DNA from: a virus
Reading direction: 5' to 3' (one strand)
IMG/VR virus record: IMGVR_UViG_3300030060_004796
Coordinates: 32,001-96,000 of that record
DNA: 64,000 nt
Under the pieces are notes generated by a model. The model was not told where the DNA came from, did no database searches, and was given only the letters and a program-made list of their open reading frames with translations. This document shows, in pieces, positions 34,786-42,658 of the stretch (within the stretch, counting starts at the first letter, position 1; each line of letters begins with the position of its first letter). The translations under genes were made by a program, and so were the position numbers.

Positions 34786-35070
34786 ATGGCTAAGGAGTTG
34801 AATGAAGAAACTGGTTTTGTATTAAGTATTAAAACTCTTATTGGAATTGCATTTGCAATTGCAACTGTTGTTGGAATGTGGTTTGCACTTCAAGCAGATA
34901 TACAAGAAGCTAAAGAATTGCCAGCTCCATTACCTCCAGATGTGACAAGAATGGAGTTTGATATGAAAGATAAGAATATAAGACTAACAATACAAAATAC
35001 AGCAGATGATGTTGAAGAACTTAAAGAAGATCTTGACAGAATTGAAGAAAAAATAGATAAATTAAAATAA
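34786..35070 (+). CDS. 94-aa TM + coiled-coil protein
   Basis: LIGIAFAIATVVGMWFAL TM segment; C-terminal heptads. Confidence 0.6.
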   Translation: MAKELNEETGFVLSIKTLIGIAFAIATVVGMWFALQADIQEAKELPAPLPPDVTRMEFDMKDKNIRLTIQNTADDVEELKEDLDRIEEKIDKLK

Positions 35071-35094: not shown

Positions 35095-35511
35095 ATGGCA
35101 ACAGTAAATAACACAATTACACTAACATCTAATGATCTTACATCTGATGCAATATCATTAAGTGTTTTAAAATCTCTTACAGCAACTAAGGGTGGTATAT
35201 CCAGAGTTCCTTTAGCTACAACAGCTATTGCAGGTGCTACAAAACTAGCAACAGCAGCTCAGTTCACTGAAGGATCAAGAGTATGGTTATACAATCCAGC
35301 TACACGTGATGGCGCATCAAAAAATGACAGAATCTATGTTTCATTAACAGAAGCAGTAGATCCTACTACAGCAGCATTTACAACTATTATGTTAAAAGGT
35401 GGTGAATGGGCAGTATTTCCATGGTCTGGATCTACAAGAACTACAGATTTAGACCTTGAAGCATATGGATCATCAGGTGCAATGGTAGTAGAGTTTGGAA
35501 TTTTTCAATAG
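35095..35511 (+). CDS. 138-aa beta-rich protein, paralog 1 of a 4-member family (probably structural)
   Basis: VWLYNP...LKGGEWAVFPW...VVEFGIF. Confidence 0.65.
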   Translation: MATVNNTITLTSNDLTSDAISLSVLKSLTATKGGISRVPLATTAIAGATKLATAAQFTEGSRVWLYNPATRDGASKNDRIYVSLTEAVDPTTAAFTTIMLKGGEWAVFPWSGSTRTTDLDLEAYGSSGAMVVEFGIFQ

Positions 35512-35538: not shown

Positions 35539-35931
35539 ATGGCAACGTTAAATTTAACATCAAATATCAACGCAGCTGGTTTAACAACAGATACAATATC
35601 ATCTACAGTATTATTAACTAATGCTAGTATTACTACAGGTGGTATATCTAGAGTTAGTACTACAGCAGTAGTAGGTAGTAAGGCAGTCTTATTAGATGCA
35701 TCAACATTTCCTGATCCTACAGATACTACAAGTGTATATGTATATATTAAGAATGCTGGTCCAAATGTATTAAGACTATCTGTTATAAACAATACAGCAT
35801 CTAATGCTGAAGATGAAATGTCTTTAGCATCAGGAGACTGGGCAATGTTCCCTTGGGCAGCAGCAACAGATATAACAATGTATCAAGCATCTGCTGGTAC
35901 TACTGTTGTTGAGTATGGAGTTTTTGCATAA
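35539..35931 (+). CDS. 130-aa beta-rich protein, paralog 2
   Basis: YVYIKNA...LASGDWAMFPW...VVEYGVF. Confidence 0.65.
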   Translation: MATLNLTSNINAAGLTTDTISSTVLLTNASITTGGISRVSTTAVVGSKAVLLDASTFPDPTDTTSVYVYIKNAGPNVLRLSVINNTASNAEDEMSLASGDWAMFPWAAATDITMYQASAGTTVVEYGVFA

Positions 35932-35935
35932 AGAA

Positions 35936-36292
35936 ATGAAAGATCCAGTTTGGAAAATATTCTTAAGCTATCTTATTTTTTTATGTTTTATGACTTTAAG
36001 CTCAACAGCTTTTGGGCAAATTACTGTAGTTCAGTATAATGCTGGATGGAATGATGCAAATAAAGTTACTTGGTTAAACAAACTAAGTGATGTAGATAAA
36101 GTAAAATACGTAGATATAGCTACTGATATTAAGGCTCAAAAAAAGCATGAAATAGTAGTTGTACCTACTATTATTATATTCAAAGATGGTGAAGAAGTAA
36201 AAAGATACCAAGCTGATATTTCATTTAGTATGAAAGCCACTAAAGAAGAAATACAAGAAGATATAGACGAACTATTAATGGAAGATTTTTAA
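35936..36292 (+). CDS. 118-aa secreted thioredoxin-fold protein lacking CxxC (start moved to MKDPV)
   Basis: Signal peptide ending AFG|Q; YNAGWN in place of FxAxWCxxC; VDI..., IVVVPTIIIFKDGEEVKR thioredoxin C-terminal motif with cis-Pro. Confidence 0.75.
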   Translation: MKDPVWKIFLSYLIFLCFMTLSSTAFGQITVVQYNAGWNDANKVTWLNKLSDVDKVKYVDIATDIKAQKKHEIVVVPTIIIFKDGEEVKRYQADISFSMKATKEEIQEDIDELLMEDF

Positions 36293-36293
36293 C

Positions 36294-38588
36294 ATGAAAA
36301 AATTATTATTAATTTTACTATTACTACCTACCTTACTTTTAGCACAAAATTCTTATATAGTTATTGAAGCTCAATATGATTCATGGGGACCTCAAGAATC
36401 AGAGTTTTATATTACTGATGCTCAAAGTGATACAATATATCATCATCAACCTACAGTTCAAAGTGAATATTTATTAGATACATTATGGGTAAATGCTCAA
36501 CCTCTTACTGTTATTTTATTAGATCAATTTGGAGATGGTTGGCAAGATACAGGTCAACAAGGTTACTTTAGAACATGGAATAACTGTCAAGACACTATAG
36601 TAGAGTTTATATGTTCACCAACAAATTACTTTGCTACAGAAATTATAAACTTTAATTTAGGACCATGTTTACCTAATGGACCACCTCCAGCACCATGTTT
36701 TCCTGCTGCCGTTATTATTAATTTAGATCAGTATCAATCAGAAACATCTTGGGAGATAACTGATTCTTTAGGTTTAGTAGTAGCATCAGGAAGTGGTTAT
36801 GGATCACAACCAGATTATGCAACTATAACTGTACCAGTATGTTTACCAGAAGGAGATCTTAATTTTACAATTTTTGATTCATATGGTGATGGTCTACAAG
36901 GGTCACAATGGCAAGGCCAAGATGGTTCTTATTTTGTTAAACAATGTAATGATACATTAGTATATGGAACAGATCCTGCTTTTGGTAACGATACTACTCA
37001 TGTATTTACCATAGGTGAATGTCCTCCTATATATGGATGTACAGATGATGATTATGTAGAATGGAATCCTTTTGCAGATACTGATGATGGTAGCTGTCAA
37101 ACATTAAAAATATTTGGATGTATTGACTCAACAGCATTTAACTATGACTCTACTGCAAATACAATGGATCTTATTCCACAATGTGAATTTACGTTAGTGT
37201 TGCATGATTTGATGGGTAACGGTTGGGTAGGATCACATCTATCTTTAGATTTACCTGACACTTCTTTCTCCTTTACACACACTGGAGGTTTTAATGATGA
37301 ATATCAATTTACTATAGACGCTCCAGATCCTGCTGTGTTTAGATTTCATATATCCTCACAAGCAGCACTAACAACTATAGAGTGTGGTTTTACATTAATG
37401 AATCCAGAAGGTGATACATTAATTAGTGTTCAACCACCATTTATACAACCTTTATTTCCTTATGCTTTTGTTACTAATTGTGGTAATACATGTATAGAAA
37501 AAGTATTTGGCTGTATAGATAGCCTTGCTTTAAACTATGATGATGAAGCTAATACAGATGACAGTTCTTGTTATTATGTAGCTGGATGTATGAATCCTTT
37601 GTATTTAGAGTATGATGCTGCTGCAGACTTTGATAATGGAAGTTGTAGTACTTTAATAGTTTTAGGGTGTATGGATTCTACTGCATTAAACTATGATCCA
37701 TTAGCAAATGTAGAAATACCTGGATCTTGTATAGCAGTTGTAGAAGGTTGTACTCAACTTTTAGCATTTAATTATAATCCTAATGCCAATGTAGATGACG
37801 GAAGTTGTGTACCTTTTATATATGGTTGTACTGACCAAACAATGTGGAACTATGATTCATTAGCAAACACTGATGATGGTTCTTGTATACCTTTTGTATA
37901 TGGTTGTATGGACAGTACTATGTTTAACTTTAATCCTTTAGCAAATGAACCAGATAGTTGTATTCCTTTTATTTATGGCTGTACTGATCCTAGTATGTTT
38001 AACTATGATGCCTCAGCTAACACAGAAGATTTTAGTTGTATTCCTTACATTTATGGTTGTACTGATAGTACTGCCCTTAATTATGATCCGTTGGCTAATA
38101 CTGAAAACGGTTCTTGCATTGAAGTGGTTACAGGGTGTATGGACCCAGATGCGTACAACTATAATTCATTAGCAAATGTAAGTGACTCAGCTTGTGTTTA
38201 TGATGCTGGTTGTATAACAGGACCTGGTAATCCTTATTGGTTAAATGACGGATGTTATGCTTGGGTTATTGATGTAGATGTATACTGTTGTGAAAATGAT
38301 TGGGATGCTTCATGTCAAACAATGTATGATTATTGTCAACTTGGTTGGCCTACTTCAATAGATGAAACAGCATCAAGTTCAATAGTTGTTTATCCTAATC
38401 CAACAAGTGGAATTTTAAATATAGATACAAGATTAGATATATCTGTAGAAGTATATGATATTAACGGTAAACTAATGATTGAAAAAAATTCTAAAAGAAT
38501 TGACTTTTCTGATTGGCCGGTAGGCATATATAATTTAATTATAAGAAAAGATGAACTAGTAATTACTAAAAGAATAATAAAACAATGA
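36294..38588 (+). CDS. 764-aa T9SS cargo protein: signal peptide, D-x-x-GDG beta-domains, 11 Cys/Asp repeats, type A C-terminal sorting domain
   Basis: MKKLLLILLLLPTLLLA|Q; C-terminal VYPNPTSG...VEVYDINGK...GIYNLII...KRIIK matches the Por secretion tail pattern. Confidence 0.88.
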   Translation: MKKLLLILLLLPTLLLAQNSYIVIEAQYDSWGPQESEFYITDAQSDTIYHHQPTVQSEYLLDTLWVNAQPLTVILLDQFGDGWQDTGQQGYFRTWNNCQDTIVEFICSPTNYFATEIINFNLGPCLPNGPPPAPCFPAAVIINLDQYQSETSWEITDSLGLVVASGSGYGSQPDYATITVPVCLPEGDLNFTIFDSYGDGLQGSQWQGQDGSYFVKQCNDTLVYGTDPAFGNDTTHVFTIGECPPIYGCTDDDYVEWNPFADTDDGSCQTLKIFGCIDSTAFNYDSTANTMDLIPQCEFTLVLHDLMGNGWVGSHLSLDLPDTSFSFTHTGGFNDEYQFTIDAPDPAVFRFHISSQAALTTIECGFTLMNPEGDTLISVQPPFIQPLFPYAFVTNCGNTCIEKVFGCIDSLALNYDDEANTDDSSCYYVAGCMNPLYLEYDAAADFDNGSCSTLIVLGCMDSTALNYDPLANVEIPGSCIAVVEGCTQLLAFNYNPNANVDDGSCVPFIYGCTDQTMWNYDSLANTDDGSCIPFVYGCMDSTMFNFNPLANEPDSCIPFIYGCTDPSMFNYDASANTEDFSCIPYIYGCTDSTALNYDPLANTENGSCIEVVTGCMDPDAYNYNSLANVSDSACVYDAGCITGPGNPYWLNDGCYAWVIDVDVYCCENDWDASCQTMYDYCQLGWPTSIDETASSSIVVYPNPTSGILNIDTRLDISVEVYDINGKLMIEKNSKRIDFSDWPVGIYNLIIRKDELVITKRIIKQ
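37029..38201 (+). repeat. About 26-aa coding repeats GC[TM]Dx(2-3)AxNY[DN]PxANxDDGSC (2 dispersed + 9 tandem from 37503)
   Basis: Counted from the translation. Confidence 0.9.
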
Positions 38589-39664
38589 AAAATAAATTAG
38601 GATATTTATTTGTATTAGTATTTTGGTTAGTAGCTACAACTGCTTTTGGTCAAGATGAAAATAAGTTTAAAAAGAATTTAAAGAAGACTTTTAAGTTTGC
38701 AACATTCTATGGAGGAGTTAATGGTGGTAATTCTATATCTGATGTAGATGTATATTCAGTTACAAATGGATTAGAGACAAGTATAATTGAAACCCCATTT
38801 GATTACTCAATTACTTTTGGTATAAGAAAGATAGCTAGATTTGGATACGAGAATAGAGCTAATACATTCTATGATGGTACAGAGAAGTCATATAGTGATG
38901 CAGCAACTTTAGGTAAAGTAAAAGGATTTGAATTTCTTTTTGAATTAGATTACGCTAGACAACAAGGCACAGACTTTTTTAATCAACAACACTTTTTACG
39001 ATATGTAGCTAATAGATGGATAGCTAAGATGGAGTACGTTCAAGATGGATTTGCGGATATTAAATACTACGAGTCATCACAAAGATACAGACTTAAACTT
39101 GGCAATAAATTTTCATTTAATTTAGGTGCAGTACAAAGACTATCTGAACCATATGGATACGATCCACTAGAAGACTGGATACTTGAAACAGGAGACATAC
39201 ACTACACAAACCTTGCTCTAGAAGAAGGGTACAATGTAGAATTTGATGGCTCAGGTGTAGTAACTTATCTAGATCCCAATGGTGCCGTTGTAGCAGAAAA
39301 CACACAGGTATGGGAAGCTGTAGTTATACCTGGCGTATTAGCAGACTATACAGAGAAAAAAAGAAATGAACTACCAACGCAATGGAACCATTCTTTAGTT
39401 ATTGGTTTTGATTACTATCACTTTACAAAAGACTTTTGGGTCCACAGTTGGGCAAACATTATGCCTTATCACTATAATAATGGTGGTGAGTTTTCATATC
39501 ATAAGTTTAACAATGATGACCAATGGAATGATTACTCAGGAGGTTTAATTTTTGGATATAGATTTAATAAACACTTAGGTTGTTTCATTGAGGGTAGGTA
39601 CGCAAAGTACTGGAACCGTGAATGGCATGACTTTAAAATAGGTGTTAATTATGTTATATTTTAG
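38585..39664 (+). CDS. 359-aa putative outer-membrane beta-barrel protein
   Basis: Signal peptide ending AFG|Q; alternating aromatic/polar strands; C-terminal FKIGVNYVIF with terminal Phe; ATGA overlap with the T9SS gene. Confidence 0.75.
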   Translation: MKNKLGYLFVLVFWLVATTAFGQDENKFKKNLKKTFKFATFYGGVNGGNSISDVDVYSVTNGLETSIIETPFDYSITFGIRKIARFGYENRANTFYDGTEKSYSDAATLGKVKGFEFLFELDYARQQGTDFFNQQHFLRYVANRWIAKMEYVQDGFADIKYYESSQRYRLKLGNKFSFNLGAVQRLSEPYGYDPLEDWILETGDIHYTNLALEEGYNVEFDGSGVVTYLDPNGAVVAENTQVWEAVVIPGVLADYTEKKRNELPTQWNHSLVIGFDYYHFTKDFWVHSWANIMPYHYNNGGEFSYHKFNNDDQWNDYSGGLIFGYRFNKHLGCFIEGRYAKYWNREWHDFKIGVNYVIF

Positions 39665-39711: not shown

Positions 39712-39894
39712 ATGATTAATTGGATTAACAGCTGGAAAGCTGGAAACAAAAAAGAAAAATATCAAATAGATATTAGAATTGGTAAACTAACTGTATTAGA
39801 AGTTATGTTTTGCCCATGTGAATTTTGTGAGAATGAAAAAACTTCTTGTTCAAGATTTAGATTTATGATTTTTAACTTAGGATTTGAACTGTAA
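39712..39894 (+). CDS. 60-aa hypothetical Cys-containing protein
   Basis: A-rich leader, CPCEFC...C, stop overlaps the next start. Confidence 0.55.
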   Translation: MINWINSWKAGNKKEKYQIDIRIGKLTVLEVMFCPCEFCENEKTSCSRFRFMIFNLGFEL

Positions 39895-40274
39895 TGGCAA
39901 CAAAAACTTTAAATGTAACATTAGGATTATCAACTACATCCACTATTAATGGGATCTTTACACTTAATGCAAGTGAATCAGATGCTATTAGTTATGATGA
40001 TACTGCAGCTTCTAGCGCAACTATAACTGTTGCTACAGGATCTGCATCACAGTTAGTTGACAAAACGGTGGTTACAAGTAAAAGTACATATGTTTATATA
40101 AAAAATCTAGATACAACAAATTTTGTAGCATTATATACTGATGATGCAAACCTTTGGGGAAAGATTCTTCCAGGAGAGTTTGCTTTTTTTCCAGTTGCAC
40201 CAGGAGCAGGATTTGAAGTTAAGGCTGATACAGCTGCCTGTGTAGTTGAATATGCTTTATTTGAACAACCATAA
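39894..40274 (+). CDS. 126-aa beta-rich protein, paralog 3
   Basis: YVYIKNL...ILPGEFAFFPV...VVEYALF. Confidence 0.65.
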   Translation: MATKTLNVTLGLSTTSTINGIFTLNASESDAISYDDTAASSATITVATGSASQLVDKTVVTSKSTYVYIKNLDTTNFVALYTDDANLWGKILPGEFAFFPVAPGAGFEVKADTAACVVEYALFEQP

Positions 40275-40531: not shown

Positions 40532-40834
40532 ATGGCAAGAAGAAGAAGAACATATGGAGGTGGTGGTGAAACAGACACTCAACCTGGAGGTGGAAGAAGA
40601 GGTGATAACTCTGGAAACAGTGGTGAAAGCAACTCTCAAACTATGAATGCTGTAAATGCTTCTGGCTCTATCACTAATGCTAATGGGAAATCTTCTAATA
40701 AATCTGCAGATGCTAATAGATCTACAGTTAAAAGAAAAAAATCTTGTAAAAGTTTAACAGGTATTACAAGAGTTAAATGTGTTCTTTCTAAATATAAAGG
40801 ACAAAGTGGGCCTGTTGGTCCAAATATGTTATAG
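40532..40834 (+). CDS. 100-aa basic Gly/Ser-rich protein ending GPVGPNML
   Basis: ORF with A-rich leader; shared C-terminal motif. Confidence 0.55.
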   Translation: MARRRRTYGGGGETDTQPGGGRRGDNSGNSGESNSQTMNAVNASGSITNANGKSSNKSADANRSTVKRKKSCKSLTGITRVKCVLSKYKGQSGPVGPNML

Positions 40835-40836
40835 TC

Positions 40837-41034
40837 ATGGCAAAGAATTGGATAAAAGGTGCAATAAAAAGACCAGGAAGATGCACTCCATTTCCAAACC
40901 CTGATTGTATGCCGGGAACACCACAATATAATCTTGCTAAAAGATTTAAAAGTGGAGACCTTAGTAAAAAGAAAAGAGGTGGTCAGGTTGCATCATGTGG
41001 ATATGGTGCAGTAGGACCAAATAAAATATTATAA
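40837..41034 (+). CDS. 65-aa basic protein (MAKNWIKGAIKRPG...) ending GAVGPNKIL
   Basis: Small basic phage-type protein; KRGG and GPN motifs. Confidence 0.6.
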   Translation: MAKNWIKGAIKRPGRCTPFPNPDCMPGTPQYNLAKRFKSGDLSKKKRGGQVASCGYGAVGPNKIL

Positions 41035-41036
41035 TT

Positions 41037-41429
41037 ATGAGTATATTAGGACAAATATTTTCAGGAGGAGCTAAAGATTTAGTAGAAGGTATAGGTGGAG
41101 TTGTAGATAACTTACACACTTCTAAAGAAGAAAAGCTTGAAGCTAAACAAAAAATGAAAGAATTAGTTGCTAACTATGAAGTAGAGATGGAAAAGCAAAT
41201 CACTTCTAGATGGGAAGCTGATATGAAATCTGACTCATGGTTAAGTAAAAACGTTAGACCATTGGTTTTAATATTTTTAGTTGTTAGTACCGTGCTATTA
41301 ATATTTATTGATGCAGGTGTTATCAACTTTGTTGTTGAAGCAAAATGGACTGACTTACTACAATTAGTATTAATCACTGTGATAGGTGCTTACTTTGGTG
41401 GTAGGTCCCTTGAGAAGACAAAAAAATAG
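41037..41429 (+). CDS. 3TM holin-like protein (GTA_holin_3TM type)
   Basis: TSKEEKLEAK...RWEADMKSDSWLSKNVRPL followed by TM helices and YFGGRSLEK. Confidence 0.8.
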   Translation: MSILGQIFSGGAKDLVEGIGGVVDNLHTSKEEKLEAKQKMKELVANYEVEMEKQITSRWEADMKSDSWLSKNVRPLVLIFLVVSTVLLIFIDAGVINFVVEAKWTDLLQLVLITVIGAYFGGRSLEKTKK

Positions 41430-41434
41430 AAACT

Positions 41435-41731
41435 ATGCCAGGATATATGAAAACCCCAATGGATATGATGGGTATGAGAGATAAAAATCTCATGAAAAGA
41501 AAAATGATGATGAATGCAAAAATAGGTAAAGAACTTAAAGAAGTACCTGGTGGTAAAGATGGTGCTGGTTTAAGAGCACTACCTAAATCAGTACGTAATA
41601 ATATGGGTTACGCTAAATATGGAGCATCTGTAAAAAAACCTAGAACTATGAAAGAGTACTATGGTGGAGGTTCCCCTTCTATGGACAAAAGAGGAAGAAG
41701 AATTCCTGGGATGTTTGATGGAATGATGTAA
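41435..41731 (+). CDS. 98-aa basic Met-rich protein
   Basis: AKYG, YYGGG, RRIPGMF motifs shared with the next gene. Confidence 0.55.
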   Translation: MPGYMKTPMDMMGMRDKNLMKRKMMMNAKIGKELKEVPGGKDGAGLRALPKSVRNNMGYAKYGASVKKPRTMKEYYGGGSPSMDKRGRRIPGMFDGMM

Positions 41732-41751
41732 AATTAAAAAAAAAAGAAATT

Positions 41752-42144
41752 ATGCCAGCAAATATAAAAAACAAAGGAAAAAAATACGGTAAATCAGGAA
41801 TGGTTGCCTATAAATATGGTGGACGTAAAGTCCCAGGAATGTTTAAAGCTCAAACTGGATTTGGTGATCCTGGGTCAAGGCCAGCAATACCAACTACAAG
41901 ATTTAATCCGTATACACACTTTAAAACTGAACAGGACTACAATGCTTGGGTTAACTCTGGATCACCTGACATTAATACATACGTACCTCCAAGGAATCCA
42001 AATATATTTAATATGAGGACACCAAGGCCTGATATGGGGAGTATGGACAGAGGTATACCACCAACAAGACCAGTAGATACTACAAAGGTTAAAAAACCAA
42101 TAATAAAAAGAGGTGGAAGTACAGGACCAAATGGAATGTTATAA
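41752..42144 (+). CDS. 130-aa basic protein with KYGG...KAQTG and a C-terminal KRGGSTGPNGML
   Basis: Shares junction motifs with the 1842-aa protein and its neighbours. Confidence 0.6.
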   Translation: MPANIKNKGKKYGKSGMVAYKYGGRKVPGMFKAQTGFGDPGSRPAIPTTRFNPYTHFKTEQDYNAWVNSGSPDINTYVPPRNPNIFNMRTPRPDMGSMDRGIPPTRPVDTTKVKKPIIKRGGSTGPNGML

Positions 42145-42289: not shown

Positions 42290-42658
42290 ATGGCATCAAC
42301 AATAAACTCAGTATTTACACTAGCAAGTTCTACAGGAACTGATCCTTTATCTATAAGAATAGCACCAACTTTTGCTATTGGTGATCCTACTGGCTCAGGA
42401 TCAATAACAACTAGTGCAACTACATCTGAATCTATTCTTAGTTCAGCACAAAGTGTAGATACTTATGTATTTTTAAGAAATACAGGTGCAAGTTCTGCAG
42501 GAAATGTTTTAGTAACAGATGGTGGAACTCCAGCTAATATTGCTTTACTTAAACCACAAGATTTTATGTTCATGCCTCTTAAGGGTGGAACAGGACTGAG
42601 AATTAATTACGATACAGCAACAACAACTCTAGATTGGTTTTACTGGACTAGAGGTTAA
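42290..42658 (+). CDS. 122-aa beta-rich protein, paralog 4 (most divergent)
   Basis: YVFLRNT...LLKPQDFMFMPL...LDWFYW. Confidence 0.6.
   Translation: MASTINSVFTLASSTGTDPLSIRIAPTFAIGDPTGSGSITTSATTSESILSSAQSVDTYVFLRNTGASSAGNVLVTDGGTPANIALLKPQDFMFMPLKGGTGLRINYDTATTTLDWFYWTRG

What the first reader, a model, noticed from the sequence alone, without database searches (positions are those of the whole stretch)
35936..39664. Phage-encoded host-envelope operon: periplasmic thioredoxin fold + T9SS cargo + outer-membrane barrel
Seen: three tightly coupled genes (1-nt gap, then ATGA overlap), each with a Sec signal peptide followed by Gln (AFG|Q, LLA|Q, AFG|Q). The middle protein carries a type A T9SS CTD and about 40 Cys; the third ends in a barrel-type terminal Phe. 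Established: T9SS exports CTD proteins to the Bacteroidota surface; Gln+1 is the Bacteroidota pyroglutamate rule. Inference: the phage uses host Sec/T9SS/BAM to build a surface structure on the infected cell. The thioredoxin fold would chaperone the disulfide-rich cargo and the barrel would anchor or partner it. Possible roles are receptor masking/superinfection exclusion, adhesion or aggregation, grazer avoidance, or carrier-state fitness. This is the strongest candidate for an undescribed system here.
Basis: partly seen in the sequence, partly recalled or inferred. Interest (0 to 1): 0.88.

Follow-up and report, generated by a model that had tools for sequence, protein, structure and literature searches.

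The report
Phage envelope module beside lysis genes
An uncultured marine phage of Bacteroidota carries a conserved, phage-only set of exported proteins (outer-membrane barrel, inner-membrane coiled coil, inactive thioredoxin, cysteine-rich secreted protein tagged here for type IX secretion) that travels with the lysis genes and matches no described system, so its role at the host envelope is still open.

Summary
Three coupled genes, each with a signal peptide followed by Gln, lie at 35936-39664. The middle one has a type A T9SS sorting domain (E 2e-12) and 38 Cys. The third models as a 12-strand-type outer-membrane barrel.

The reading needs revision.
2. The thioredoxin fold is redox-dead: WNDAN replaces WCxxC and the mature protein has no Cys.
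3. Barrel, coiled coil and thioredoxin co-occur in 63 of 63 fully flanked phage loci. The T9SS domain occurs in only one clade (29/30 against 0/33). The closest 120-kb relative has a short unrecognised tail instead.
4. Most loci without the T9SS domain (27/33) carry a small Cys-rich secreted protein, usually starting 2-4 nt after the barrel gene.
5. A holin or endolysin lies within 8 kb in 51 of 63 loci, and in some the module sits between the two.

The barrel family appeared only on phage-like contigs, and no paper found describes the module. I favour a late envelope device that pairs the barrel with a Cys-rich surface protein (0.4). A spanin-like role is the main rival (0.25). This scan has already noted the same module on other DNA.

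The parts
34786..35070 (+). tm94: 94-aa bitopic membrane protein (TM about residues 17-34, Pro-rich linker, conserved TRMEFDMKD motif, C-terminal coiled coil). In this window it is separated from the Trx gene by two inserted paralogous genes.
   Evidence: Translation. It is 66-90% identical in L001-L011 beside the barrel. It is present in 63 of 63 fully flanked loci. Alignment A5. No Pfam family above cut-off; phrog_1009 (unknown function) at E 2e-4.
35936..36292 (+). Exported thioredoxin-fold protein (signal peptide 1-27, AFG|Q). It is redox-dead: WNDAN replaces WCxxC, the cis-Pro (VPT) is kept, and the mature chain has no Cys.
   Evidence: weak single-sequence Trx hits. (family profile against solved thioredoxins, E 4e-11). 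(WNxxN in all 31 aligned members). (the only Cys is at residue 17, inside the signal peptide).
36294..38588 (+). Cargo, 764 aa. It has a signal peptide (1-17, LLA|Q), three small beta-sandwich domains with DxxGDGW motifs (about residues 20-400), about 11 two-Cys repeats (GCxDxxAxNYxxxANxDDGSC), a Cys-rich knot, and a type A T9SS CTD.
   Evidence: Model me09fc9c6fad8 has pLDDT 76.5. Only generic beta-sandwich matches: best Z 6.9 to a Ca-dependent carbohydrate-binding module and ferlin C2 arrays in Foldseek.
38388..38585 (+). Type A T9SS C-terminal sorting domain of the cargo (residues 699-764).
   Evidence: PF18962 E 1.7e-12 and TIGR04183 E 2.4e-12. It is the only PF18962 match in the 120-kb genome.
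38585..39664 (+). Outer-membrane beta-barrel, 359 aa (signal peptide 1-22, AFG|Q; terminal ...GVNYVIF). It belongs to a family seen only on phage-like contigs and has no Pfam, NCBIfam or PHROG family.
   Evidence: no family. (12-strand-type barrel). (3640 homologs in metagenomes). (339 representatives at 50% identity). (only 6 loci in 185,579 species genomes, all on MAG contigs).
39712..39894 (+). sm60: 60-aa beta-rich peptide, a frequent neighbour of the module. Its role is unknown.
   Evidence: Homologs beside the module in 13 of 30 and 13 of 33 fully flanked loci. No family.
41037..41429 (+). Holin-like protein (3 TM), 1.4 kb downstream of the barrel. It is the lysis gene that stays linked to the module in this genome.
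   Evidence: phrog_3427 holin E 3.2e-31. Pfam GTA_holin_3TM E 4e-5, 24.5 bits against a cut-off of 24.8. The same gene follows barrel-tm94-trx in most set B loci.

Best explanation
The three genes belong to a four-part phage envelope module that puts one protein in each layer of the host envelope. The parts are the inner-membrane coiled-coil protein tm94, a redox-dead periplasmic thioredoxin fold, a 12-strand-type outer-membrane barrel, and a Cys-rich secreted partner.

Shown here:
- The parts and their export signals are present.
- Barrel, tm94 and Trx co-occur without exception.
- The barrel gene is usually translationally coupled to a Cys-rich secreted protein.
- The module is linked to lysis genes.
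- The barrel family was found only on phage-like contigs.

Inferred working: the module is made late in infection, together with the lysis genes. All four proteins leave the cytoplasm through Sec, and host BAM inserts the barrel. In this window the host T9SS carries the Cys-rich partner to the cell surface through its type A CTD. In relatives a short C-terminal tail would take that place. The partner is then held at or by the phage barrel, much as PorP/SprF barrels hold type B T9SS cargo. The tm94-Trx pair, whose genes usually abut or overlap, would act as a membrane-tethered, non-catalytic holdase for the Cys-rich chain.

The likely purpose is to remodel the surface of the dying cell around the time of lysis, for example by masking receptors on the cell and its debris. 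That purpose is conjecture.
For: Anatomy.

Co-inheritance across unrelated phage backbones and at least seven gene orders. Barrel, tm94 and trx are present in 30/30 and 33/33 fully flanked IMG/VR loci.

Cys-rich partner:
- The full cargo is present in 30/30 close loci, with an ATGA overlap to the barrel here and in L006.
- In the divergent clade, 27/33 loci have a small secreted Cys-rich protein. In 38 of 46 cases it starts 2-4 nt after the barrel stop.
- The L160-type mini protein shares the DSYGDGW beta-sandwich and the short tail with full-size cargos.

The best structural matches of the barrel include autotransporter translocator barrels, which hold a passenger (Z 14.2, rmsd 4.1, 188 aligned).

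Bacteroidota host: every exported member follows the Gln+1 rule, in both clades. Phage-encoded type A CTD cargo has a precedent in Cryophage (PMC7468147).

The two-Cys repeats also occur in proteins without a signal peptide: one in this genome (G000:C1:3598-5976) and the large proteins of L100 and L155. A cyanophage gene annotated as a virion structural protein carries them too. This is compatible with a decoy or mask built from virion-type binding modules.
Against: Six of 33 divergent loci have the trio and no detectable Cys-rich partner nearby, so the trio can exist without one.

The barrel shows no sequence relation to PorP/SprF. Pfam gives no hit, and hhalign gives 18% probability over the signal peptide only.

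The short tails are not recognisable as T9SS CTDs: there is no PF18962 match at E up to 10, and hhalign gives 4-12%. How those partners would reach the surface is therefore unknown.

The role of tm94 is not explained by anything measured. The holdase role of a Cys-free Trx is inference. No expression, localisation or binding data exist.

The link to lysis genes fits a lysis function at least as naturally as a surface one.
Confidence: 0.4

Rival explanations
1. Outer-membrane step of lysis. Barrel, tm94 and Trx would form a spanin-like or otherwise OM-destabilising device of Bacteroidota phages. tm94 plays the i-spanin part, the barrel (with or without the small Cys-rich protein) replaces the o-spanin lipoprotein, and Trx is an adaptor. 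The T9SS cargo is then a clade-specific add-on.
For: A holin or endolysin-like gene lies within 8 kb in 32/33 divergent and 19/30 close loci.

In several architectures the trio sits inside the lysis cassette: endolysin-tm94-trx-barrel-holin in L164, and barrel-mini-tm94-trx-Peptidase_M15_3-holin in L134. Canonical cassettes keep their spanin genes in this position.

tm94 has the i-spanin layout of an N-terminal TM segment plus a coiled coil.

In this window the phrog_3427 holin is 1.4 kb downstream.

The barrel fold also resembles the OM lipid-acting enzymes LpxR (Z 11.9) and OMPLA (Z 10.8).
Against: No OM lipoprotein is a constant member, and the barrel has an SPase I type signal.

The part of tm94 after the TM segment is only about 55 residues. 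By my own estimate that is too short to span a periplasm alone.

Sequence conservation is unusually high for spanins: the barrel is 60-81% identical across different backbones.

A Cys-rich partner with a T9SS CTD makes little sense for a periplasmic bridge.

In this genome the endolysin candidate lies 35 kb away.
Confidence: 0.25
2. Two unrelated things share a late transcription block. The T9SS cargo would be an independent, hypervariable accessory gene, such as an adhesin, glycan binder or receptor mask, as in Cryophage. The barrel-tm94-Trx trio would have a separate envelope function, such as lysis timing or superinfection sensing, with no physical link to the cargo.
For: The trio occurs with no PF18962 anywhere in five divergent-clade phage genomes, four of them at least 97% complete.

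Cargo length and repeat number vary widely (730-1226 aa), while the trio is conserved.

The position of the cargo relative to the trio differs between architectures.

Metagenome contigs show many alternative joints inside the repeat region.
Against: The cargo is present in 30/30 close loci and never far from the trio.

The cargo-barrel ATGA overlap recurs in different backbones.

Most CTD-less loci still have a small Cys-rich secreted protein 2-4 nt after the barrel.
Confidence: 0.2
3. Host-derived moron, that is, a lysogenic-conversion type outer-membrane protein like lambda Lom or Bor, captured from a flavobacterial genome together with a neighbouring T9SS substrate.
For: Phage-borne OM proteins of that kind exist (own knowledge: lambda Lom and Bor). 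The cargo uses host-type sorting signals.
Against: A scan of one genome for each of 185,579 species found only 6 loci. All are MAG contigs with mutually inconsistent taxa and phage gene content.

The barrel family has no Pfam or NCBIfam model.

The genome looks like a large virulent crAss-like phage, and no integrase was noticed in the ORFs read.
Confidence: 0.04

Closest known systems
T9SS cargo with a cognate outer-membrane barrel (type B CTD proteins with PorP/SprF-like partners, e.g. SprB/SprF of Flavobacterium johnsoniae; own knowledge)
   Same: A large secreted surface protein is encoded next to, and translationally coupled with, a roughly 300-360 aa OM beta-barrel. The setting is Bacteroidota, with a Sec signal followed by Gln.
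   Different: The cargo here has a type A CTD, not type B. The barrel is not a PorP/SprF member (no Pfam hit, hhalign 18%). The pair is phage-borne. It always comes with an IM coiled-coil protein and a redox-dead Trx, and it persists where no CTD is detectable.
Phage-encoded type A T9SS cargo ('Cryophage' variable genes, Bellas et al. 2020, PMC7468147)
   Same: A phage gene with Por_Secre_tail, variable between related phages, presumed to use the host T9SS.
   Different: The Cryophage cargos are enzymes or a PA14 protein, with no barrel, Trx or coiled-coil companions reported. Here the cargo is a non-enzymatic Cys-repeat protein embedded in a conserved four-gene module.
Two-component spanins (lambda Rz/Rz1 type)
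   Same: The module sits in or beside the lysis cassette. One member is a small membrane-anchored coiled-coil protein and another is an OM protein.
   Different: There is no OM lipoprotein and no embedded or overlapping gene pair of the Rz/Rz1 kind. The OM member is an integral barrel. A Trx fold is added. The periplasmic part of tm94 is short. A recent survey reports only unimolecular spanins for Bacteroidetes phages (PMC12596118).
Phage-borne outer-membrane barrels (lambda Lom; cyanophage OMP-like barrel, Pfam PF24653)
   Same: A phage-encoded OM beta-barrel made during infection. The language-model search lists a PF24653 cluster among look-alikes (score 0.93).
   Different: There is no sequence match to PF24653 or the Ail/Lom family at E up to 1. 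The strand number and companions differ. This family is tied to tm94 and Trx.
Autotransporter and FapF-type 12-stranded translocator barrels
   Same: These are among the best fold matches: EstA Z 14.2, NalP 12.9, FapF 10.8. The model has an N-terminal helix before the first strand.
   Different: There is no fused passenger, and the partner is a separate polypeptide. No sequence similarity. A translocation role is untested.

Membership tests
T9SS type A CTD cargo (TIGR04183 / PF18962) | C-terminal domain scoring above the curated cut-off | tested here: met
   47.9 bits against 27 (Pfam) and 46.7 against 23 (NCBIfam), residues 699-764.
T9SS type A CTD cargo (TIGR04183 / PF18962) | N-terminal Sec signal peptide | tested here: met
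   MKKLLLILLLLPTLLLA|QNS, read from the translation. No SignalP tool was available.
T9SS type A CTD cargo (TIGR04183 / PF18962) | Secretion depends on a host T9SS (SprA, PorV, GldKLMN) | not testable with these tools
   The host is uncultured and unidentified. The closest relative L011 carries a short non-CTD tail instead.
Thioredoxin (PF00085) | Thioredoxin fold with conserved cis-Pro | tested here: met
   The family profile hits solved thioredoxins at E 4e-11. VPT is invariant.
Thioredoxin (PF00085) | CxxC active site | tested here: not met
   WNDAN here, and WNxxN in all 31 aligned members. The mature protein has no Cys.
Two-component spanin | i-spanin: N-terminal TM segment plus periplasmic coiled coil | tested here: inconclusive
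   tm94 has this layout by sequence, but the part after the TM segment is only about 55 residues and its topology was not tested.
Two-component spanin | o-spanin: small OM lipoprotein with lipobox, gene embedded in or abutting the i-spanin gene | tested here: not met
   There is no lipoprotein among the constant members. The barrel has an AFG|Q signal without a lipobox Cys. A lipoprotein appears only in some relatives (L002, L016).
Two-component spanin | Location in the lysis cassette | tested here: met
   51 of 63 loci have a holin or endolysin-like gene within 8 kb. L164 and L134 have the trio between endolysin and holin. Here the holin is 1.4 kb downstream.
PorP/SprF (PF11751) | Sequence membership | tested here: not met
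   No Pfam hit at E up to 1. hhalign of A1 against five PorP/SprF proteins of a Flavobacteriales MAG gives probability 18% over 39 columns of signal peptide.
PorV / FadL-like T9SS shuttle | 14-stranded FadL-type barrel | tested here: inconclusive
   FadL-type chains match only at Z 8.6, below the 12-stranded barrels at Z 12-14. No PorV chain appeared in the lists.
Cyanophage OMP-like barrel (PF24653) | Sequence membership | tested here: not met
   No Pfam hit at E up to 1. There is only a language-model look-alike at 0.93 with 151 shared features.

The most novel reading that the evidence does not exclude
The barrel, the membrane-anchored coiled coil and the Cys-less thioredoxin form a previously unknown phage machine for the outer membrane of Bacteroidota. 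It could be a new class of outer-membrane disruptor that replaces spanins. It could instead be a phage-supplied split-autotransporter-like export and anchor device, which takes Cys-rich proteins to the surface with or without the host T9SS.
Probability: 0.3. Interest if true: 0.85.

Novelty: new variant of a known kind. Interest (0 to 1): 0.7.

Why it matters
How phages of Bacteroidota breach or remodel the outer membrane is poorly known, and few spanins are recognised in them.

This module is abundant. It is conserved across unrelated phage backbones and was seen only on phage-like contigs.

If it handles the outer membrane at lysis, it would fill a gap in the lysis paradigm for a major marine and gut phylum. 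If it displays a Cys-rich protein, it would be a phage-borne surface-display system that plugs into T9SS. That would bear on superinfection, on particle attachment of infected flavobacteria, and on engineering surface display.

The redox-dead WNxxN thioredoxin is a clean case of a catalytic fold turned into a binding module.

Tried and rejected
- **Complex prediction** of barrel (23-359), tm94 (36-94) and Trx (29-118) with alignments: no verdict, ipSAE 0.00 in both runs. This is no evidence either way.
- **Expression:** no RNA holder is listed for the stretch, so nothing can be said on expression.
- **Promoters and terminators:** the sigma-70 promoter scan, the terminator scan and the Bacteroidota -7 motif TANNTTTG show no useful enrichment. 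The transcription unit is not defined beyond co-directional tight packing.
- **Deposited phage genomes (INPHARED):** no blastn or tblastn match for the region, the barrel, the divergent barrel P0253 or tm94. The cargo matches only through its two-Cys repeats.
- **Library scans:** PHROGs, Pfam and NCBIfam give nothing for the barrel.
- **Cargo fold:** the N-terminal domains match only generic beta-sandwiches (Z at most 6.9), so no ligand can be assigned.
- **Short C-terminal tails against the type A CTD:** hhalign gives 4-12% probability, with only the 'xDxxGRxV' piece aligning. The relation is unresolved.
- **tm94-like protein of L016:** an N-terminal extension looked like a T2SSE_N/MshEN domain by eye. 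Pfam does not confirm it, so I dropped it.
- **Catalytic site in the barrel:** I looked for an OMPLA or PagL-like Ser/His/Asn site. Conserved S270, H287 and N355 exist, but I could not read model coordinates, so this was not pursued.
- **Assembly chimera:** rejected.
- **Literature:** searches for this module found nothing.


Full report
**What is there**

The window is bases 32001-96000 of a single 120,198-base virus record rated 100% complete. The record carries phage replication genes: ribonucleotide reductase, a DNA polymerase of phrog_1252, and a primase. It also has giant ORFs of 1842, 1138, 5193 and 1850 aa.

The three genes of the finding are as described:
- 35936-36292, 118 aa
- 36294-38588, 764 aa
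- 38585-39664, 359 aa

The junctions read TAA-C-ATG and ATGA. All three signal peptides end just before a Gln.

The middle protein scores well above the curated cut-offs for the type A T9SS sorting domain. It is the only such match in the genome. It has 38 Cys, most of them in about 11 two-Cys repeats. Its first 420 residues model as three small beta-sandwiches that match nothing specific.

The first protein is a thioredoxin fold by profile (E 4e-11 to solved thioredoxins). WNDAN replaces WCxxC, and the mature chain has no cysteine.

The third protein has no family in Pfam, NCBIfam or PHROGs. It models as an outer-membrane barrel whose best matches are 12-stranded barrels: EstA Z 14.2, KdgM 13.7, NanC 13.2, NalP 12.9.

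**A fourth member**

I compared the window with loci that encode close homologs of the barrel. The same 94-aa protein always travels with it. This protein has an N-terminal membrane segment, a Pro-rich linker, a conserved TRMEFDMKD motif and a C-terminal coiled coil.

In this window it lies at 34786-35070. Two inserted genes of a paralogous ~130-aa family separate it from the thioredoxin gene. A 60-aa peptide at 39712-39894 is a frequent but not constant neighbour.

**Distribution**

The barrel has 3640 homologs and the thioredoxin 2972 in public metagenomes, mostly marine. At 50% clustering the barrel family shrinks to 339 representatives.

A scan of one genome for each of 185,579 prokaryote species found six loci. 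All are MAG contigs assigned to unrelated taxa (Parvibaculum, Nitrosopelagicus, Rickettsiales, Maricaulis, Flavobacteriales). Where the flanks can be read, they carry phage genes.

No deposited phage genome matched. The family therefore appears confined to uncultured phages. The host phylum is inferred from the CTD and the Gln+1 rule. That rule holds for every exported member in both clades.

**Synteny test**

I fetched two sets of 80 IMG/VR loci:
- Set A has barrels 60-81% identical to the window's.
- Set B is a divergent clade about 34-45% identical.

I built HMMs for each module part and counted only loci with at least 6 kb on both sides of the barrel.

| | Set A | Set B |
|---|---|---|
| tm94 and Trx present | 30/30 | 33/33 |
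| Full cargo | 30/30 | 0 (no cargo-size neighbour with a CTD) |
| CTD detected | 29/30 | 0/33 |
| Holin or endolysin-like gene within 8 kb | 19/30 | 32/33 |

Five set B phage genomes, four of them at least 97% complete, have no PF18962 match anywhere.

Gene order differs in at least seven ways. The backbones also differ: they include genomes with T4-like replication genes, a 145-kb genome with sugar-modification genes, and the crAss-like genome of this window. The linkage is therefore not one inherited arrangement.

**The cargo question**

Earlier notes of this scan concluded that the trio is separate from the cargo. That holds for the T9SS domain. It needs a qualifier, though.

In 27 of 33 set B loci there is a small secreted Cys-rich protein:
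- In 22 loci it is a 148-310 aa protein with 9-10 Cys. It usually starts 2-4 nt after the barrel stop.
- In five loci it is a 180-aa protein made of one DSYGDGW beta-sandwich and a short tail, placed after the thioredoxin gene.

That short tail (…ITDLLGRPxK…LLFYIYDDGxVxKK…) also ends many full-size cargos, including the cargo of L011. L011 is the 120,283-base relative with the same gene order as this window.

Pfam does not recognise the tail as a CTD, and profile comparison is not significant. So the C-terminus switches between a full type A CTD and a short tail within one phage lineage. A Cys-rich secreted partner of the barrel is common but not universal: six loci lack one.

**Link to lysis**

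- The gene at 41037-41429 is a holin by PHROGs (E 3e-31).
- The 206-aa protein at genome position 107885-108505 matches an endolysin PHROG (E 2e-14). In many loci a 2-TM 71-aa protein sits directly in front of it.
- L164 reads endolysin-tm94-trx-barrel-holin.
- L134 reads barrel-mini-tm94-trx-Peptidase_M15_3-holin.
- In this window only the holin is near. The endolysin candidate lies 35 kb away.

**Interpretation**

Shown:
- There is a conserved four-part envelope module found only on phage-like contigs.
- Its thioredoxin is redox-dead.
- It is linked to the lysis genes.
- Its Cys-rich partner is variable, and in this window that partner is a T9SS substrate.

Inferred: the barrel is the outer-membrane partner or anchor of the Cys-rich protein, and tm94-Trx is a tethered non-catalytic holdase. 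The device would act late, at about the time of lysis. I put this at 0.4.

The main rival is a spanin-like or other outer-membrane-disrupting role for the trio (0.25). Its position in the lysis cassette and the i-spanin-like layout of tm94 favour it. Against it stand the lack of a lipoprotein, the short periplasmic reach of tm94, the unusually high sequence conservation and the surface-directed partner.

A third reading treats cargo and trio as unrelated neighbours (0.2). A host-derived moron (0.04) and an assembly artefact are nearly excluded.

**Comparison with known systems**

Phage-encoded type A CTD cargo has been reported once, in Cryophage (PMC7468147). The Gln+1 rule has been noted for P. 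gingivalis phage genes (PMC10367356). A survey of lytic proteins reports only unimolecular spanins for Bacteroidetes phages (PMC12596118).

The module fails a defining feature of each family I considered:
- no CxxC, so not a working thioredoxin
- no lipoprotein, so not a two-component spanin
- no sequence relation to PorP/SprF or to the cyanophage OMP family

It works most like a T9SS cargo with a cognate barrel, but it is not a member of that family. Literature searches found no description of the module.

This scan has already noted the same module on other DNA. I tested the earlier claims about the trio and its lysis neighbourhood. They hold, with the qualifier about the small Cys-rich partners.

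**Limits**

- There are no expression, localisation or interaction data.
- The complex prediction gave no verdict.
- The barrel model has mean pLDDT 73.7, with a poorly modelled but highly conserved loop at residues 84-111.
- The loci in each set are related to one another, so the counts are not independent events. The variety of gene orders and backbones is the better argument.

Noticed in passing
window 35095-35511, 35539-35931, 39894-40274, 42290-42658: Four diverged paralogs of about 125-138 aa (MATxN... start, ...VVEYGxF end, no signal peptide) are interleaved with the module. Two of them split tm94 from the Trx gene. Similar genes sit between trx and the endolysin candidate in L100. They have no family and are probably small virion or accessory beta-proteins.
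   Followed up: partly
window 40532-42144 and G000:C1:105778-106586: Small, very basic proteins end in GPNxxL (GPVGPNML, GAVGPNKIL, TGPNGML). Another copy, ending ...QIGPNNIL, lies beside the 2-TM/endolysin cluster outside the window. The shared C-terminal tag is unexplained.
   Followed up: no
G000:C1:3598-5976 (L099:599-2977), outside the window: A 792-aa protein without a signal peptide, in the structural gene region, carries the same two-Cys GCxDxxAxNY...C repeats as the secreted cargo. Large proteins without a signal peptide in L100 and L155 carry them too, as does a Synechococcus phage S-CAM3 gene annotated 'virion structural protein'. The cargo may reuse virion-type binding repeats.
   Followed up: partly
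L011:5320-7575 against window 36294-38588: Cargo orthologs in phages with the same gene order end either in a full type A T9SS CTD (window, L019, L021) or in a roughly 40-aa tail that Pfam does not recognise (L011). About half of the 120 best cargo homologs listed lack a PF18962 hit.
   Followed up: partly
window 37000-38300: Metagenome contigs laid on the repeat region of the cargo show many alternative joints that skip 74-872 bases. This suggests repeat-number variants or cross-mapping between repeat units in related phages.
   Followed up: no
L002:9009-9326; L016:9640-10254: In some relatives a lipoprotein lies inside the module: a 105-aa Pro/Asn-rich one between trx and cargo in L002, and a 204-aa one before the tm94-like gene in L016. 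These could be o-spanin-like partners. No equivalent was seen next to the module in this window.
   Followed up: no
L151:12764-13183; L153:12708-13115: In loci that lack any Cys-rich partner, a 135-139 aa secreted protein lies about 1 kb after the holin. It ends ...FRFGLLYKL or ...FKLGVSYKF and has weak OMP_b-brl and DUF5777 hints (E 0.03 and 0.008). It may be a second, small outer-membrane barrel.
   Followed up: partly
G000:C1:106589-108505 (L098): Outside the window, a 2-TM 71-aa protein, a PhoH-like ATPase (E 8e-50) and the endolysin candidate form a second lysis-related cluster 35 kb from the module. In many other phages the 2-TM gene and the endolysin directly abut the module.
   Followed up: partly
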